Origin: an uncultured cyanobacterium
Lineage (GTDB): Bacteria > Cyanobacteriota > Cyanobacteriia > Cyanobacteriales > Nostocaceae
Assembly (NCBI GenBank): GCA_963706595.1
Contig: OY970166.1
Coordinates: 4,000,001-4,064,000 of the forward strand
Reading direction: 5' to 3'
Length of the DNA: 64,000 nucleotides
This document shows, piece after piece, positions 40,630-45,810 of the stretch (positions are counted from its first letter, which is position 1; every line of letters starts with the position of its first letter). Below the pieces are notes generated by a model. That model saw nothing but the letters and a program-made list of their open reading frames with translations, searched no databases and was not told where the DNA came from. The position numbers were made by a program, and so were the translations under genes.

Positions 40630-43095
40630 ATGTCAGAAGTGCCTACTCAGTGTCAAAATTTATCAGAGCAAGTTGAGTCTATATTACAATTTTTACAGCA
40701 AGAACCATCTTTACGTTCTCAAGATATTACATCTGTACAAACTTCTCTAGGAAAAGTGATTTCTCCAAAGTTTGAAATTGTATTTGCAGGTGCATTTAGT
40801 GCCGGGAAGTCGATGCTAATTAATGCCCTCCTAGAACGGGAGTTGTTATATAGTGCCGAAGGACACGCTACAGGTACGGAATGCAAAATTGAGTATGCGG
40901 AACTAAATAATGAACGGGTGGTTTTAACGTTTTTAAGTGAAGTTGAAATTCGGGAACAAGCTAGTTTTCTGTGTCAACATTTGGGATTTCAAACAGCCGT
41001 TAATATTAATCAAGTTGAAGTAATTAGCCTCTTGCGTCAAGGTTGTGAAACGATTATTCAGCACGAAGGTGGGGAAAGTAAATCGGAACGTGCAAAACAA
41101 GCGAAGGCTTTAATATTGCTGCTGGATGGGTATGAGGCAAACCGTCAACATATTCATACTATGAATAATGCTACATACTCGATGGAGCAATTTAACTTTT
41201 CTAATCTCAAAGAAGCTGCTGGATATGCGCGGCGTGGGAGTAATAGCGCTGTGTTAAAAAGAATTGAATATTACTGTAACCATCCCCTTTTGTCAGATGG
41301 TAATGTGATCATCGACACGCCAGGAATTGATGCACCAGTAGAGAAGGATGCACAGTTAACTTACGACAAGATTCAACATCCAGATACATCGGCGGTGGTG
41401 TGTGTGTTAAAACCTGCTTCTGGTGGTGATATGACGAAGGAAGAAACGGAACTTTTAGAAAAAATGCGAAACAATGCGGGAATACGCGATCGCATCTTCT
41501 ACACCTTCAATCGCATTGACGAAACTTGGTATAATACCCAGTTAAGGCAGCGTTTAGATGATTTAATTAGTCAACAGTTTCGAGATGCGAGTCGGGTTTA
41601 TAAAACCAGTGGTTTACTCGGATTTTACGGTAGTCAGATTAAACGCACTACTGAAATAGATAGATTTGGGTTAGATTCTGTTTTTACAGAGAGTGTTAAA
41701 AGTCTCAATGGCACAGAAGAAACACCGCAATTTATTAATGAGTTTAACCGCTATTGTGTTAATTCTGGCAAACTTTCACATAGACAGTTTCCCATTTCCA
41801 TAAGCAATGCTCAAACTGCCAATCAAAATTATGTGAGAATTTTAAATGAGCATGGAACGCCTTTAATTAATCAGCTAATTCAAGATAGTGGAATTGAGGA
41901 ATTTCGCACAGCTATTACTAAATATTTAGTAGAAGAAAAGCGTCCACAGCTTTTCAAAAATCTGGCTGATGATTTGGAAGATATTTGCATTAAATTAAAA
42001 AAACATTATCAGGGTGAACAAAGGAATTTAGATAGTCAACCGCGAGAAATTGAGGCGATGAAGGCGCAAGAGTTACAACGCCTGAATCAGCAGCTACAGC
42101 AAGTTGGTAAAGATTTTAGCCAGCATATTGCAGAAGAAGTCAACCAAATAATTAATAATTCCTGTGATGCTTTTGAATCAGATTTTCGACAACTACAATC
42201 ACGGATGATTCGGCGTTTAGATGAATTGCTAGATACCTTTTCTGTGGCTGATGCTTATCGACGTTCTACTATTAGTCATCCCCGAAATGCAACTGCACCT
42301 TTACTAGCTATTTTAGTCGAGGCATTTTATTATTTAGCAAATCAATTAGAAGATATCTTGATAGATTCTTCTCAACAATTAGTTGCTAATTTGTTTCAGC
42401 GATTAATGGATAAAATTCGCAAGTCAGAATACTATCGTCAATTATATCGGTTGTTAGGTAATGATGGCGGCATTGAAAAAGAGGTAAAAATTTTAGAAAA
42501 ATCAGTATCTTTAGCGTTAGTAAGTGCAGCTAGTATAGAATGCGATCGCTTCGTCAGAGAAAGTCCTAGATTTTATGATGAAGGCACGTTTTCTATATAT
42601 CAATTTCGCCAAACTTTGCTGCAAACTTCCCAAGGTTACGATTCTGAAAGCATAGTAGAAGCTGAACCAGCAATTAGACAATTGTTAAAGTTAGATTTTG
42701 AACCAAAAGTTTCTCAAACAATCCGTAAAACCTTCCGCCAAACTATCAGCCAAATCCTCAAAAGTCAGTTATTACCTATGGCGGAACAGCAAGCAGATGA
42801 TATTTTGCAGCAGTACCCCCAAGCGCGGGCTTATTTAGAGCAAAGTCTGCAACAAGAAGCTGAGGAAAAAATTCTGAATAATCGCCGCTTATTGAGTGTT
42901 GTTGAACAAAAAATTGCGGCTTATAATTCCGCCGTTTCGCAAATCAATAATTGCTTACAGTCTATGCAGTTATATGATCATTTATTGCCTGAAATTGGCA
43001 ACGAAGATGTTCAACCACTAGTAACTGATGCAGAAGTTGTTGAATTTGCGAATAAAGATACTTTTATTGCTGATGGTTTAGTCAGCAATATATAG
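40630..43095 (+). CDS. Bacterial dynamin-like GTPase (SynDLP-like)
   Basis: G1 GAFSAGKS, G3 DTPG, G4 NRID, long helical stalk, HPRN motif, Cys near both termini. Confidence 0.88.
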   Translation: MSEVPTQCQNLSEQVESILQFLQQEPSLRSQDITSVQTSLGKVISPKFEIVFAGAFSAGKSMLINALLERELLYSAEGHATGTECKIEYAELNNERVVLTFLSEVEIREQASFLCQHLGFQTAVNINQVEVISLLRQGCETIIQHEGGESKSERAKQAKALILLLDGYEANRQHIHTMNNATYSMEQFNFSNLKEAAGYARRGSNSAVLKRIEYYCNHPLLSDGNVIIDTPGIDAPVEKDAQLTYDKIQHPDTSAVVCVLKPASGGDMTKEETELLEKMRNNAGIRDRIFYTFNRIDETWYNTQLRQRLDDLISQQFRDASRVYKTSGLLGFYGSQIKRTTEIDRFGLDSVFTESVKSLNGTEETPQFINEFNRYCVNSGKLSHRQFPISISNAQTANQNYVRILNEHGTPLINQLIQDSGIEEFRTAITKYLVEEKRPQLFKNLADDLEDICIKLKKHYQGEQRNLDSQPREIEAMKAQELQRLNQQLQQVGKDFSQHIAEEVNQIINNSCDAFESDFRQLQSRMIRRLDELLDTFSVADAYRRSTISHPRNATAPLLAILVEAFYYLANQLEDILIDSSQQLVANLFQRLMDKIRKSEYYRQLYRLLGNDGGIEKEVKILEKSVSLALVSAASIECDRFVRESPRFYDEGTFSIYQFRQTLLQTSQGYDSESIVEAEPAIRQLLKLDFEPKVSQTIRKTFRQTISQILKSQLLPMAEQQADDILQQYPQARAYLEQSLQQEAEEKILNNRRLLSVVEQKIAAYNSAVSQINNCLQSMQLYDHLLPEIGNEDVQPLVTDAEVVEFANKDTFIADGLVSNI

Positions 43096-43145
43096 CATTT
43101 TCCATCTTATAACTATTCATCCCGTCTTCCGTTTGTACAACAAAA

Positions 43146-43178
43146 AGATCCCCGACTTCTTCAAGAAGTCGGGGATCT
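43146..43178. repeat. 33-bp dispersed palindrome (copy 2 of 3)
   Basis: Same arms as 34853. Confidence 0.9.
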
Positions 43179-43218
43179 AAGCTTCTCGGTTCCGCCACAT
43201 AATCAATCAGGCTAATTG

Positions 43219-43464
43219 ATGAATAAAACGCCGCGAATTCGTATCCCGCCAGAAGTCAGACAATATGTATTTCAAAGAGATAAATACCAATGCCAAAGCT
43301 GCGGTAAAACCAAGTTAGAAACTGACTTGACAATCGATCATATCATCCCCCTAGCCCGTGGCGGTCAAAACGATATGAGCAATTTACACACCCTCTGCTT
43401 GACTTGCAACCAGCAAAAAACCGATAAACTTGACCCTCGATTCCGGCGACATTTTCAGAATTAG
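43219..43464 (+). CDS. Small stand-alone Zn-binding HNH endonuclease
   Basis: RD...CQSCG...IDHIIPLARGG...NL..LCLTCN..K. Confidence 0.9.
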   Translation: MNKTPRIRIPPEVRQYVFQRDKYQCQSCGKTKLETDLTIDHIIPLARGGQNDMSNLHTLCLTCNQQKTDKLDPRFRRHFQN

Positions 43465-43541
43465 GAATTTTCCAAAAATAAATTATGCCTTTTTAGTTAA
43501 TTGTGTTACATTAAGTAGCGAGATGTAATACATAGGCTTTG

Positions 43542-43629
43542 TTATGGTTTGGGTTCTATATACCCGACTGGCGCGCCAACCACTGGATTGACCGTGTAGT
43601 ACAAAGTAACTTGTAACGTCACACCATAA
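43542..43629 (+). ncRNA. Putative ~90-nt multibranch ncRNA (RNA A)
   Basis: Closing stem TTATGGT/ACCATAA enclosing hairpins TTGGGT/ACCCGA, TGGC/GCCA and TGAC/GTCA. Confidence 0.5.
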
Positions 43630-43633
43630 ACCC

Positions 43634-43704
43634 CAAAAGTTAGCTCACTGGTAGAGCAATCGAACAAAATCGATTTGTTACAGGTTCGATTCCTGTACTT
43701 TTTA
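43634..43704 (+). ncRNA. tRNA-like RNA with non-canonical 6-nt anticodon loop
   Basis: AAAAGT/ACTTTT acceptor, T8A9, GCTC-ACTGGTA-GAGC D arm, ATCGA-ACAAAA-TCGAT anticodon arm, ACAGG-TTCGATT-CCTGT T arm. Confidence 0.85.
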
Positions 43705-43748
43705 CCCACCCTGAAAAGGTGAAACACACTAACCTGAAAAGGTTACTA

Positions 43749-44030
43749 GAAACTCTGTAATGTAGGCTTACTAGCGCTCATCACTTGTGGTGTTCGGTAG
43801 TAGCAGTAAAGAAGCCAGCGCGAATGTTCTCTCCCTGACTTGAGTCTGTCCCTTCGGTTTTCCTATCCGGAGTTCTGGAACTGGCTAACCGAACGGCATA
43901 TTTGAGCGTTGTTGTCTGTTTCTAGATTACCCTTGGGTAGTTTAGGAATAAGTAGCAGCCTTCTTAATCCAGTTTTGGATGTGAAATTTGCCCGCAACTG
44001 AACTGTAAAAACCTACATTTGCGGAGTTTT
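43749..44030 (+). ncRNA. Putative ~280-nt multibranch structured ncRNA (RNA B)
   Basis: 18-bp end-to-end helix plus at least five internal helices; many pairs are G-U on the + strand. Confidence 0.65.
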
Positions 44031-44103
44031 AAAATTTAGTGTAGTATGTGTAGTATTGACTCAAAAGTTATCTCCTAATTAAGTTATTGGCACTAATGCC
44101 TGA

Positions 44104-44210
44104 TATAGCGGTTATCAGTTAAGTGAGATACAAGAACCCCACCCCCAACCCCCTCCGGTGCAAGCGAGGAGGAGGCTATGATCTACTTCATTGAAGTGGA
44201 TACCGCCATA
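44104..44210. mobile_element. MITE-like element (TATAGCGGT...ACCGCCATA); related inverted copy at 51056-51143
   Basis: Imperfect inverted ends; shared core aagaaccccacccc...gcaagcgagga...gctatgat. Confidence 0.65.
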
Positions 44211-44223
44211 ACTCATTTTACCT

Positions 44224-45810
44224 ATGTTTTTATTAAACTTTTTTCGTCGGCTAAAACTGCCGAAATTATCTATGAAAATTTCTTTGTGGAAAACTTTTTA
44301 TATCAAGCCTAACGAAATTGGGATTTTGTATCAACGCAGTGATTTTCATAAAATCTTACAACCTGGTACTTACAACTATTTTGGTCCGCACTGGAATGTG
44401 AAAACCTATGATCTCAATCAACCAGAGTCTCAAATTGAGAACTTGGAATTGTTGGTGCGAAATCATAGTGCAGAGTTACAGCCACATCTCTTAGTAGTTA
44501 AAACAGCATTTAATGAAGCGGCTTTAGTTCGCTGTGGTCAAAATTGGGTCAGTGTTGCGCCTAATGAATTACGAGCTTTTTGGCGTGGTTTTATTGAGGT
44601 AGAATCCCATATTTTCAACTTAGATGAAAACTTGGAATTACCTGCGGAATTTGTGCGGCAACTACGGGTAAATACCTTAAATGGCATCAAAAAATTCCAA
44701 ATTTTTGAGTACGAAATTGGTTTGCTGTACGTGCAGAATAACTTTGTGCGCCCCCTAGTAACCGGAGAGTACGCTTTTTGGGCTGTAGATAGAGATGTTT
44801 CAGTGCGGACTCTCAGCCGGATGATTCCAAATCCAGAGTTTCCCTTAGAAGATATCTTGATTTCACAACATCCCGATTTTGTCGCAGCTTATTGCAAAAC
44901 TGTCGAATTACAAAATCAACAAGTTGCGATCGCCCGCTATCAAGGTAAAGTTATTAGTATCCTCGCCCCATGTAGTCGCAAGCTGTTTTGGCGAGATGTA
45001 GAGGTAGAAGTCATTGACATCAGCACCGATGCTAAATTGTCATCTGATTTAGTTGCTGAGTTGGTTGTGGGTTTACCTGAAGCGGTAATTTTGAGCCTCA
45101 ATAGTTTACATATTGCCTACATACCCCCGCAGTATGTGGGACTGTTGTACATCAATCAAGAGTTTCAAACACAACTCCAGTCCGGGAATCATGCTTGGTG
45201 GGTGTTTGGGCGTTCTGTAAACACAGAAATCTTTGACCTCCGCCAACAAACGATGGAAGTATCCGGCCAAGATATTTTATCCAAAGATAAAGTGCCTTTG
45301 CGCCTCAACTTAACTGCTGGCTACCGCATCACCGACCCACTCACAGCCAAAAACCGTTTATCGGATTTAACTAGCTACTTATACAAAGAGTTGCAATTTG
45401 CTTTACGTGGTGCTGTAGGTGAAAAAACCCTAGATACCTTACTAGAAGACAAAGGAGCCATTGATAGCAGTATTTTTGATTACATTCACCAAAAAACCGC
45501 CGACTATGGCATAGAAATAGATTCGGTTGGAGTCAAAGATATCATTCTCCCTGGTGAGATTAAAACGATTTTAGGGAAAGTAGTAGAAGCAGAAAAAATC
45601 GCCCAAGCTAACGTCATCCGTCGTCGTGAAGAAACTGCTGCTACCCGCAGTATGTTAAATACTGCCAAAGTAATGGAAGATAACCCCGTAGCATTGCGTT
45701 TAAAGGAGTTAGAAGTATTAGAACGAATTGCTGAGAAAATTGAGAAAATCCAAGTCAATGGAAGTTTAGATAGTATTTTGACCGACTTAGTGCGGATGAA
45801 TCGCGATTAA
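44224..45810 (+). CDS. SPFH/Band-7 (slipin-like) protein with five N-terminal beta repeats and C-terminal coiled coil
   Basis: DLRQQ.MEVSGQDILSKDKV.LR.N, GVKDIILPGE, AEK.AQAN.I.RREETAATRS.LNTAK motifs. Confidence 0.9.
   Translation: MFLLNFFRRLKLPKLSMKISLWKTFYIKPNEIGILYQRSDFHKILQPGTYNYFGPHWNVKTYDLNQPESQIENLELLVRNHSAELQPHLLVVKTAFNEAALVRCGQNWVSVAPNELRAFWRGFIEVESHIFNLDENLELPAEFVRQLRVNTLNGIKKFQIFEYEIGLLYVQNNFVRPLVTGEYAFWAVDRDVSVRTLSRMIPNPEFPLEDILISQHPDFVAAYCKTVELQNQQVAIARYQGKVISILAPCSRKLFWRDVEVEVIDISTDAKLSSDLVAELVVGLPEAVILSLNSLHIAYIPPQYVGLLYINQEFQTQLQSGNHAWWVFGRSVNTEIFDLRQQTMEVSGQDILSKDKVPLRLNLTAGYRITDPLTAKNRLSDLTSYLYKELQFALRGAVGEKTLDTLLEDKGAIDSSIFDYIHQKTADYGIEIDSVGVKDIILPGEIKTILGKVVEAEKIAQANVIRRREETAATRSMLNTAKVMEDNPVALRLKELEVLERIAEKIEKIQVNGSLDSILTDLVRMNRD

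What the first reader, a model, noticed from the sequence alone, without database searches (positions are those of the whole stretch)
43500..45810. Candidate RNP system: cassette of structured RNAs (90-nt RNA, tRNA mimic, 280-nt RNA) upstream of a multi-repeat SPFH/Band-7 protein, with no RtcB or Ro nearby
Seen in the sequence: about 530 nt of non-coding DNA is almost entirely taken up by + strand helices in the order RNA A (43542-43629), tRNA-like cloverleaf (43634-43704), two GAAA hairpins (43707-43745) and RNA B (43749-44030), followed co-directionally by an SPFH gene. Established: slipin-like Band-7 genes often sit in RtcB RNA-repair neighbourhoods, and from memory tRNA-like RNAs have been reported beside them; the major vault protein also combines beta-repeats, an SPFH-like shoulder and a long helix, and associates with small RNAs. 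Inference: this is a stand-alone ribonucleoprotein or stress module in which an oligomeric SPFH cage binds one or more RNAs cut from a single precursor. The two extra structured RNAs and the lack of an adjacent ligase are not explained by any family I recognise.
Basis: partly seen in the sequence, partly recalled or inferred. Interest (0 to 1): 0.92.

Follow-up and report, generated by a model that had tools for sequence, protein, structure and literature searches.

The report
Conserved RNA cassette before slipin gene
A block of three kinds of folded RNA, including a transfer-RNA look-alike whose anticodon changes unusually fast, sits in front of a vault-like cage protein across cyanobacteria and appears to be their version of a predicted but untested bacterial RNA-repair particle.

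Summary
Window 43529-44031 (+) carries a 60-nt core RNA A, a tRNA-like gene with a 6-nt anticodon loop, two small hairpins and a 280-nt multi-helix RNA B. They lie upstream of a 528-aa slipin/SPFH gene. A 109-nt dispersed repeat (44103-44211) lies between them and is not part of the cassette.

RNA A and RNA B each accompany the SPFH gene in 73 of 80 cyanobacterial loci. Both show compensatory base changes, and neither matches Rfam 15.

This is not an unknown kind of system. It is the cyanobacterial form of the Band-7/"b7a-tRNA"/RtcB module predicted by Burroughs and Aravind. RNA A recurs upstream of the homologous SPFH gene in Photobacterium and Burkholderia. In Anabaena, the published TrcR translational-stress regulon holds a slipin gene that is probably this one, together with rtcB.

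Apparently new here:
- RNA A and RNA B as structured RNAs.
- An anticodon triplet that evolves faster than four-fold degenerate sites in Nodularia.
- A type XIII-like retron reverse transcriptase embedded in the cassette in 13 of 80 loci, but not in this one.
- A predicted fold collinear with the major vault protein.

No binding or processing of the RNAs has been shown. The scan had already met the proteobacterial form of this module on other DNA.

The parts
43501..43535 (+). Conserved promoter-like block upstream of RNA A: TTGTGT, a 17-nt spacer, then TGTAAT. It contains the TTACAT-N-TAATACA signature shared with the rtcB upstream region.
   Evidence: The block is conserved in the 59 anchored upstream regions. 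The composite pattern occurs only here and upstream of rtcB in the 5.57-Mb genome, but the pattern was chosen post hoc. The consensus scan did not call it a promoter.
43541..43602 (+). RNA A core: hairpin 43550-54/43562-66, stem 43571-75/43593-97 with an inner 3-bp hairpin, and a closing 2-bp helix.
   Evidence: The full CM R1 match is 43529-43630 at 87.3 bits. Covariation is counted. Homologous hits lie upstream of SPFH in Photobacterium and Burkholderia.
43634..43704 (+). tRNA-like gene of 'type 2'. The D and T arms are intact, the 1-72 pair is mismatched, and the anticodon loop has 6 nt (43664-43669).
   Evidence: Rfam tRNA at 48.3 bits. ARAGORN does not call it. The four close orthologues have identical D, T and anticodon stems, and their anticodons read AGA, TCT, CAT and TCC.
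43707..43745 (+). Two short hairpins with anticodon-loop-like loops (CUGAAAA and UGAAAA). They occupy the slot that holds a third tRNA-like gene in other genera.
   Evidence: Sequence. One close relative has the first hairpin deleted and another has its loop changed. The third-slot tRNA-like genes appear.
43749..44031 (+). RNA B, about 280 nt: an 18-bp terminal stem closing at least five internal helices, followed by a U-run.
   Evidence: Fold z = -5.6. Covariation on 54 sequences and on the 37 without a reverse transcriptase. No Rfam match at E <= 10.
44103..44211 (.). Dispersed repeat (MITE-like) inserted between RNA B and the SPFH gene. It is not part of the system.
   Evidence: At least 40 copies at 84-96% identity in the own genome. 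Without it the gap to the start codon would be 83 nt, as in L039, L040 and L047.
44224..45810 (+). Slipin/SPFH protein of 528 aa: two N-terminal beta-repeat modules, an SPFH domain and a long helix. No hydrophobic anchor was noted, but this was not tested.
   Evidence: Pfam Band_7 over aa 300-470. AlphaFold model with pLDDT 88.3. Stomatin matches at Z = 17 and major vault protein at Z = 10-12, collinear. Sources name it 'slipin family protein'.

Best explanation
The non-coding block is the RNA half of the cyanobacterial version of the Band-7 (slipin) / b7a-tRNA RNA-repair-type module.

**Shown here**
- The cassette has a fixed order: RNA A, then one to three tRNA-like genes, then RNA B. It lies co-directionally and directly upstream of a soluble multi-repeat SPFH gene across cyanobacteria.
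- It has its own conserved upstream block.
- RNA A, and the same order of parts, recur in proteobacterial loci that also carry RtcR, RtcB-sized and nucleotidyltransferase genes.

**Inferred**
- A promoter controlled by the translational-stress repressor TrcR makes one precursor.
- RNase P and RNase Z cut at the tRNA-like unit and release RNA A, the tRNA mimic and RNA B.
- These RNAs dock on or inside a vault-like homo-oligomeric SPFH cage.
- The particle presents anticodon-loop mimics as bait or substrate for tRNA-damaging nucleases. It works with the unlinked RtcB ligase when translation is damaged.
- The fast-changing anticodon would then reflect an arms race or a free-running bait, not decoding.
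For: **Linkage**
- RNA A (CM R1) is found in 73 of 80 SPFH loci, with all 81 matches on the SPFH strand.
- The RNA B profile is found in 73 of 80.
- ARAGORN finds one to three same-strand tRNA-like genes in 64 of 80.
- No other protein neighbour recurs in more than 13 of 80 loci.

**Structure**
- Covariation supports RNA B and RNA A.

**Family**
- The b7a-tRNA/Band-7/RtcB prediction is quoted in bioRxiv 10.1101/312249 (passage seen).
- R1 hits lie 330-480 nt upstream of the SPFH gene in Photobacterium (E = 0.009), B. cenocepacia (E = 0.018) and B. stagnalis (E = 5.6), out of 73 kb searched.
- Photobacterium has the same order: RNA A, two tRNA-like genes, a stem-closed RNA, then SPFH.
- Citrobacter has rtcR | slipin | nucleotidyltransferase.

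**Regulation**
- In the Anabaena trcR mutant, alr0739 and alr0740 (slipin) rise 72- and 42-fold and rtcB 77-fold. TrcR shifts the alr0739 promoter (PMC10272220, passages seen).
- In this genome TTACAT-N11-15-TAATACA occurs only upstream of rtcB and of RNA A.
- The published TrcR operator 18-mer occurs exactly once.

**Expression**
- Contigs from RNA libraries of four studies cover 43547-44024 at 99% identity or better.

**Protein**
- The model is collinear with major vault protein repeats, shoulder and cap helix. Model residues 23-486 align to MVP 164-690 at Z = 10.3-12.2.

**Anticodon**
- 15 of 18 pairwise site comparisons differ among four Nodularia-group orthologues. Four-fold degenerate sites in the adjacent gene diverge by 0.21.
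Against: - No experiment or computation here shows that the RNAs bind the protein, that they are processed, or that a cage forms.
- The metatranscriptome records are assembled contigs. They cannot show RNA ends, strand or level, and DNA carry-over is not excluded.
- The shared promoter pattern was read off the two sequences it then 'found'. About four chance sites would be expected genome-wide by my own rough estimate, so only its uniqueness counts.
- That alr0740 is the orthologue rests on the source name and on contig length, not on a direct alignment.
- I could not read Burroughs and Aravind 2016. I therefore cannot say whether RNA A or RNA B is already described there.
- In this window a U-run after RNA B and a repeat insertion separate the RNAs from the SPFH gene. 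Co-transcription is therefore doubtful here.
- RNA B has no detectable sequence homologue outside cyanobacteria.
Confidence: 0.55

Rival explanations
1. The cassette is, or derives from, a retron-type element. RNA B, whose terminal stem resembles the a1/a2 repeats, possibly together with RNA A, would be the template RNA of a type XIII-like reverse transcriptase, with SPFH as the effector. The Nodularia locus would be a copy that has lost its reverse transcriptase.
For: - 13 of 80 SPFH loci carry an RT-cluster ORF. Full-length members of the cluster score 519-668 bits on PADLOC RT_XIII.
- In 12 of the 13 the RT lies on the SPFH strand, inside or next to the cassette, for example RNA A - 3 tRNA-like - RNA B - RT - RNA A' - RNA B' - SPFH in L060. 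In L044 it lies on the opposite strand, 1.7 kb upstream.
- Five of the 13 RT frames are short and look like remnants: L061, L100, L104, L107 and L114.
- The RTs inside SPFH loci cluster on a quick tree: 2 changes against a shuffled mean of 7.3, and 0 of 500 shuffles as low.
Against: - 67 of 80 loci have no RT. The own genome has only a different retron-type RT fused to an AAA domain, 38% identical.
- RNA B keeps its compensatory changes in the 37 RT-less sequences taken alone: 59 of 101 pairs.
- Of 30 RT loci fetched from 300 sampled cyanobacterial genomes, none has RNA A, RNA B or SPFH within 1.5 kb.
- RNA A occurs in proteobacterial RtcR-type loci that have no RT.
- The tree is a quick one; the careful search did not finish.
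Confidence: 0.15
2. The block is a long structured 5' leader that regulates SPFH expression in cis, with ordinary tRNA genes lying in it by chance. On this reading it is a riboregulator, not a set of stable RNAs.
For: In many loci RNA B ends only 11-60 nt before the SPFH start codon. This fits a leader.
Against: - The tRNA-like genes carry anticodons not used for decoding in bacteria (AGA, AAG, AAT and stop-reading CTA and TTA). Many have 5- or 6-nt loops or a mismatched first pair.
- In 11 loci a 190-200-aa OmdA-like gene lies between RNA B and SPFH. In this window a repeat does.
- Whole cassettes are duplicated.
Confidence: 0.15
3. The tRNA-like genes are functional spare tRNAs of a stress regulon, like the Anabaena trn array. 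RNA A and RNA B would be processing by-products.
For: - Many copies encode a 3' CCA and a canonical 7-nt loop, most often CAT.
- The trn tRNA array belongs to the same TrcR regulon.
Against: - The window's copy has a 6-nt loop and cannot decode.
- The body is identical across anticodons that would need different synthetases.
- RNA A and RNA B are themselves under structural selection.
Confidence: 0.08

Closest known systems
Band-7 / b7a-tRNA / RtcB RNA-repair operons under RtcR. Predicted by Burroughs and Aravind, NAR 2016. I know this only through the passage in bioRxiv 10.1101/312249 and earlier notes of this scan.
   Same: - A soluble slipin-type SPFH protein, 40% identical to the three-repeat Burkholderia stagnalis form.
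- A tRNA-like gene just upstream on the same strand.
- RNA A upstream of that.
- A link to RtcB at the level of regulation.
   Different: - No RtcB, RlaP-type nucleotidyltransferase or RtcR at the locus, and no sigma-54 promoter.
- One to three tRNA-like genes of three distinct types.
- A 280-nt RNA B with no detectable sequence relative outside cyanobacteria.
- A retron reverse transcriptase in some loci.
Ro60 (Rsr) with the YrlA/YrlB Y RNAs
   Same: A tRNA-mimicking domain joined to a second RNA module, encoded beside a ring- or cage-forming protein in RtcB neighbourhoods.
   Different: No TROVE protein in this genome. No Rfam Y-RNA-type match at E <= 10. The partner protein is SPFH, not Ro.
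Eukaryotic vault (major vault protein plus vault RNAs)
   Same: The predicted protein is collinear with MVP repeats, SPFH-like shoulder and cap helix (Z = 10-12). Small structured RNAs are encoded with it.
   Different: - Only two repeat modules instead of nine.
- No Pfam Vault or MVP-shoulder hit.
- 11-16% identity to MVP.
- No TEP1 or PARP partner.
- Neither RNA association nor cage formation has been shown.
Type XIII retrons (Mestre et al. 2020, PMC7736814; passages seen)
   Same: The reverse transcriptase found in 13 of 80 loci scores best on PADLOC RT_XIII.
   Different: - No WH-SWIM or ARM partner genes in these loci.
- The window has no RT.
- RNA A and RNA B are not found beside the other cyanobacterial RT_XIII genes.

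Membership tests
Band-7/b7a-tRNA RNA-repair module (Burroughs and Aravind 2016) | A soluble slipin-type Band-7/SPFH protein orthologous to the one in RtcB operons | tested here: met
   tblastn gives 40.5% identity over 95% of the query to the B. stagnalis gene, which sits between an RtcR-sized ORF and RtcB-sized and nucleotidyltransferase-sized ORFs. It gives 42.5% to the Citrobacter 'slipin family protein' beside rtcR. The B. stagnalis neighbours were sized, not searched against families.
Band-7/b7a-tRNA RNA-repair module (Burroughs and Aravind 2016) | A tRNA-like non-coding RNA encoded next to the Band-7 gene | tested here: met
   Rfam tRNA at 48.3 bits at 43634-43704 with a non-canonical loop. 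The same is seen in 15 of 15 related loci scanned with Rfam, and in B. stagnalis and Photobacterium.
Band-7/b7a-tRNA RNA-repair module (Burroughs and Aravind 2016) | An adjacent RtcB ligase | tested here: not met
   The only RtcB match in the genome is at 1,686,768-1,687,859, which is 2.36 Mb from the window. No RtcB-like cluster recurs among neighbours in the 80 loci. A functional link is suggested only by regulation.
Band-7/b7a-tRNA RNA-repair module (Burroughs and Aravind 2016) | RtcR / sigma-54 control | tested here: not met
   No RtcR gene lies beside the module. PMC10272220 states that Anabaena has no RtcR homologue and that TrcR plays the equivalent role.
Ro60/Y RNA system | A TROVE-domain Ro60 protein | tested here: not met
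   PF05731 finds nothing in the own genome (94% complete), while the control genomes respond.
Retron (type XIII) | A retron-clade reverse transcriptase adjacent to its ncRNA | tested here: not met
   No RT lies in the window, as the ORF list and Pfam show. The only RT relative in the genome is a different type at 2.27 Mb. The feature is met in 13 of 80 related loci.
Retron (type XIII) | msDNA synthesis from the ncRNA (branching G, a1/a2 repeats) | not testable with these tools
   RNA B has an 18-bp terminal stem. Whether it primes cDNA cannot be computed.
Major vault protein family | MVP repeat and shoulder domains recognisable by sequence | tested here: not met
   Pfam reports only Band_7 and Band_7_1. 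The resemblance is at fold level only.
Genuine tRNA | A 7-nt anticodon loop and an anticodon usable for decoding | tested here: not met
   The loop has 6 nt and ARAGORN makes no call. The orthologues read AGA, TCT, CAT and TCC on an identical body.

The most novel reading that the evidence does not exclude
Cyanobacteria, and more widely bacteria with slipin/b7a loci, build a vault-like ribonucleoprotein. In it an MVP-like SPFH cage is loaded with RNA A, RNA B and tRNA mimics. The anticodon loops of the mimics are kept under diversifying selection as a bait library for anticodon nucleases from phages or competitors. Damage to the bait would trigger or guide RtcB repair. In some lineages a captured retron reverse transcriptase would copy or diversify the cassette. 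This would make the module a prokaryotic counterpart of vault particles and their vault RNAs, and a new kind of innate sensor of tRNA damage.
Probability: 0.15. Interest if true: 0.92.

Novelty: new variant of a known kind. Interest (0 to 1): 0.74.

Why it matters
The b7a-tRNA/Band-7 module was still only a prediction in 2018: bioRxiv 10.1101/312249 says its RNA 'has not been validated experimentally'.

This locus family offers a well-resolved, testable version:
- Two further structured RNAs with covariation support that are absent from Rfam 15.
- One of them, RNA A, conserved from cyanobacteria to beta- and gamma-proteobacteria. It is therefore a likely handle for the protein.
- A known genetic switch, TrcR, to turn the module on in a tractable model (Anabaena PCC 7120).

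The anticodon triplet changes faster than neighbouring synonymous sites while the rest of the loop and the body stay fixed. That is an unusual evolutionary signature for any tRNA-like molecule.

The vault-like fold and the occasional retron reverse transcriptase connect three poorly understood topics: vault origins, SPFH cages that are not membrane-bound, and retron domestication.

Tried and rejected
- **Rfam.** Beyond the tRNA match, nothing appears in 43400-44300 at E <= 10 except chance-level rows: Plastid-ycf2 on the opposite strand, mir-241 and psbT-asRNA.
- **HNH link.** I considered a HEARO/IscB-type link to the upstream HNH gene. I dropped it because HNH and the dynamin recur only in the Nodularia group, in 6 and 4 of 80 loci. 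Earlier scan notes assign them to the SynDLP dynamin operon.
- **RNA B model.** I used an nhmmer profile and inspection instead. nhmmer found no RNA B relative in the two proteobacterial loci searched, L150 and L151, which is no evidence of absence.
- **Papers not held.** Burroughs and Aravind 2016 could not be opened by DOI or by a guessed PMC id. The supplement of Mestre 2020 was too large to read. Either may bear on whether cyanobacterial RT/SPFH loci or RNA A and RNA B are already listed.
- **RNA A outer helix.** A helix between 43538-43544 and 43601-43607 fits the window but not the other genera. Only its inner two pairs were kept.
- **RNA A and RNA B ends.** Pairing between the RNA A 5' flank and the RNA B 3' end was considered and dropped as weak.
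- **Search motif.** The 12-mer TGTAGTAATACA with 2 mismatches is not enriched in the window: 7 found against 6.5 expected.
- **Metatranscriptomes.** No contig covered the SPFH or HNH coding regions. With assembled contigs this proves nothing.
- **Neighbour comparison.** The 213-aa recurrent neighbour is unrelated to the ORF beside the RT in L120.
- **Literature searches.** None of the following found a paper describing these RNAs in cyanobacteria:
  - tRNA-like / SPFH / cyanobacteria
  - Band-7 / RtcB / Y RNA / vault
  - b7a-tRNA
  - Burroughs / RNA repair / band-7 / tRNA
  - retron / type XIII / SPFH
  - slipin / RtcB / tRNA-like
- **Complex prediction.** No complex-prediction job was sent.
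Full report
**What is in the window**

The 759-nt gap lies between a small HNH gene (43216-43464) and a 528-aa Band_7/SPFH gene (44224-45810). On the + strand it holds five things in order.

- A conserved promoter-like block at 43501-43535.
- RNA A, core 43541-43602.
- A tRNA-like gene at 43634-43704. Rfam scores it as tRNA at 48.3 bits. ARAGORN does not call it because the anticodon loop has only 6 nt.
- Two small hairpins at 43707-43745.
- RNA B at 43749-44031.

RNA B folds far better than shuffled sequence (z = -5.6). RNA A alone does not (z = +0.5). Window 44103-44211 is one of at least 40 copies of a dispersed repeat in this genome and is an insertion. Without it, RNA B would end 83 nt before the start codon, as in three sister genomes.

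**Conservation**

The window belongs to a 5.57-Mb single-contig genome whose nearest named relatives are Nodularia and Anabaena CCY records. A scan of one genome per species found 545 confirmed relatives of the SPFH protein. The best 80 were kept, and all are cyanobacteria of several orders.

- My covariance model of RNA A gives 81 matches at E <= 0.001. One is in the window and 80 are in 73 of the 80 loci. Every match is on the strand of the SPFH gene.
- A profile of RNA B hits 73 of 80 loci.
- ARAGORN calls one to three same-strand tRNA-like genes within 1.5 kb upstream in 64 of 80.
- The window's own protein neighbours recur in 0-6 of 80 loci. No other neighbour cluster exceeds 13 of 80.

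The conserved unit is therefore the RNA cassette plus SPFH.

**Structure of the RNAs**

I projected the window's minimum-energy fold of RNA B onto 54 non-redundant sequences.

- 86.1% of cells pair, against 35-42% with slid partners.
- 59 of 101 pairs carry compensatory changes, against 28-36 slid.
- 0 of 500 column shuffles reach any of the five measures.
- Helices 1 to 6 are supported. Two short proposed helices are not.
- The structure was derived from one of the sequences, which favours it over the slid controls.
- The signal persists in the 37 sequences from loci without a reverse transcriptase: 59 of 101 pairs.

For RNA A, a 15-pair structure is 95.8% paired, against 18-58% slid. It has 52 double-change cells, against 2-11 slid. 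Neither RNA matches any Rfam 15 family at E <= 10.

**The tRNA-like genes**

Aligning 121 of them shows three types that occupy fixed slots.

- Type 1 has acceptor GUUUGAU and often a 5-nt loop.
- Type 2 is the window's type. Its first pair is mismatched and its loop is usually CU-NNN-AA.
- Type 3 has a different D stem and irregular loops.

Many encode CCA. The anticodons called include CAT (41), TAT (11), TTT (10) and many that bacteria do not decode with. These include AGA, AAG, AAT and the stop-reading CTA and TTA, plus 2- and 4-base 'anticodons'.

In the window and four close relatives, the tRNA body is identical apart from the acceptor 5' end and one variable-loop base. The loops read AC-AAAA, CTAGAAA, CTTCTAA, CTCATAA and CCTCCAA.

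- Among the four with 7-nt loops, 15 of 18 pairwise site comparisons differ.
- Four-fold degenerate sites of the adjacent SPFH gene differ by 0.21 on average.
- By my own parsimony count this needs at least six substitutions at three sites, plus a deletion. That is well above a neutral expectation of roughly one. The estimate is rough and the taxa are not independent.
- Across all type-2 pairs with 4.6% body divergence, the anticodon differs at 34% of sites.

Positions 32, 33, 37 and 38 stay conserved. The loop shape is kept and the triplet is not.

**What family it is**

Wang et al. [quoted passage not shown] I could not open the original paper.

Earlier notes of this scan describe the proteobacterial form: RtcR, a tRNA-like RNA, slipin, RtcB and RlaP. 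I checked this in part.

- Citrobacter has rtcR | slipin | nucleotidyltransferase.
- B. stagnalis has a three-repeat SPFH 40% identical to ours. A tRNA-like gene lies 260 nt upstream. RtcR-, RtcB- and nucleotidyltransferase-sized ORFs lie around it.

The RNA A model, built only from cyanobacteria, hits 330-480 nt upstream of the SPFH gene in three proteobacteria. It gave one other weak match in the 73 kb searched.

- Photobacterium: E = 0.009.
- B. cenocepacia: E = 0.018.
- B. stagnalis: E = 5.6.

The Photobacterium hit keeps GGUGCGCCAA and GCGUAUACC, and changes both sides of hairpin 1. Photobacterium also has the same order: RNA A, two tRNA-like genes, a stem-closed 125-nt RNA (z = -2.7), then SPFH.

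RNA A is thus a cross-phylum part of these loci. RNA B is so far seen, by sequence, only in cyanobacteria.

**Link to RtcB without linkage**

The genome has one rtcB, 2.36 Mb away, and no TROVE/Ro gene. In Anabaena PCC 7120, deleting the repressor TrcR raises three transcripts (PMC10272220, passages seen).

- alr0739 rises 72-fold.
- alr0740, a 'slipin family protein', rises 42-fold.
- rtcB rises 77-fold.

TrcR shifts the alr0739 promoter, and the authors call TrcR the functional equivalent of RtcR. The PCC 7120 member of our family is named slipin and lies on a 6,413,771-bp contig. I take it to be alr0740 but did not align it. In related genomes a 190-200-aa OmdA-like gene sits between RNA B and SPFH. 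That would correspond to alr0739.

In the window's genome, the pattern TTACAT-N11-15-TAATACA occurs only twice: upstream of rtcB and upstream of RNA A. The pattern was chosen after comparing the two, so this is weak. The published 18-base TrcR operator occurs exactly once elsewhere.

**The protein**

The AlphaFold model (pLDDT 88.3) shows two beta-repeat modules, an SPFH domain and a long helix.

- The SPFH part matches stomatin at Z = 17.
- The whole chain aligns collinearly with major vault protein. Model residues 23-486 align to MVP 164-690 at Z = 10.3-12.2, with about 225 residues aligned.
- Relatives come in a three-module form of about 510 aa and a two-module form of about 380 aa. At E <= 1e-30 there are 524 cluster representatives.

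**The reverse transcriptase**

In 13 of 80 loci an ORF of one reverse-transcriptase cluster lies in the locus. Full-length members score best on PADLOC RT_XIII, at 519-668 bits against 301-331 for the next model.

- In 12 of the 13 it is on the SPFH strand, inside or beside the cassette. It is typically followed by a second RNA A'-RNA B' pair without tRNA-like genes.
- In L044 it lies on the opposite strand, 1.7 kb upstream.
- Five are short remnants.
- The eight full-length ones fall in two groups on a quick tree (the careful search did not finish).
- Related RTs in 300 sampled cyanobacterial genomes are never next to the cassette: 0 of 30 fetched loci. Some sit beside RNase III or canonical type XIII partners.
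- The window's genome lacks this RT.

I read it as a lineage-specific addition, not the core of the system.

**Expression**

Assembled contigs from RNA libraries of four studies cover 43547-44024 at 99% identity or better. One 446-nt contig spans RNA A through most of RNA B. Contigs cannot show ends, strand or abundance.

**Verdict**

This is a ligase-unlinked cyanobacterial variant of a predicted RNA-repair-type ribonucleoprotein module. Several features appear undescribed in the papers I could search. How it works remains inference.

Noticed in passing
window 44103-44211: A 109-nt dispersed repeat (MITE-like) with at least 40 copies at 84-96% identity in the own genome. It is also abundant in the same-genus genomes searched.
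   Followed up: partly
window 40630-43464: An 821-aa dynamin-family GTPase followed by an 82-aa HNH gene. Earlier scan notes describe this as the SynDLP-type dynamin operon with a small HNH companion. Here the pair recurs only in the Nodularia group (4 and 6 of 80 loci).
   Followed up: partly
window 43146-43178; also L119 about 2715-2750: A 33-nt perfect palindrome (AGATCCCCGACTTC...GAAGTCGGGGATCT type) lies after the dynamin gene. A near-copy lies upstream of rtcB. Many metatranscriptome contigs match only this element, so it is a dispersed palindromic repeat.
   Followed up: no
L118 (own genome, 2,270,592-2,271,371, minus strand): A 748-aa ORF joining a retron-type reverse transcriptase to an AAA_5 domain. 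Its best PADLOC rows are RT-Protease_XI, RT-TIR_XII and RT-Toprim_I-C. This looks like a separate retron-like defence gene.
   Followed up: partly
L121 3001-3774, L125 448-1149, L126 2940-3623: An RNase III gene lies directly beside type XIII-like retron reverse transcriptases in three cyanobacterial genomes. I found no description of this pairing.
   Followed up: no
L014 2050-2126: A group II intron domain (Rfam Intron_gpII, 65 bits) abuts the first tRNA-like gene of the cassette in one genome.
   Followed up: no
L042, L043, L062, L073, L074, L077, L079, L080 and others, between RNA B and SPFH: A 190-200-aa protein with a C-terminal OmdA/YdeI domain is inserted between RNA B and the SPFH gene in 11 loci. 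It probably corresponds to alr0739 of Anabaena PCC 7120. A PD-(D/E)xK protein follows SPFH in about 10 loci.
   Followed up: partly
L101 3425-3500, L108 3393-3468, L097, L106, L104, L052 (tRNA-like genes): A subgroup of the tRNA-like genes keeps an unusual loop, UGUAUCG, with G instead of U at position 33. It is conserved across several genera, so not all loops are free to vary.
   Followed up: no
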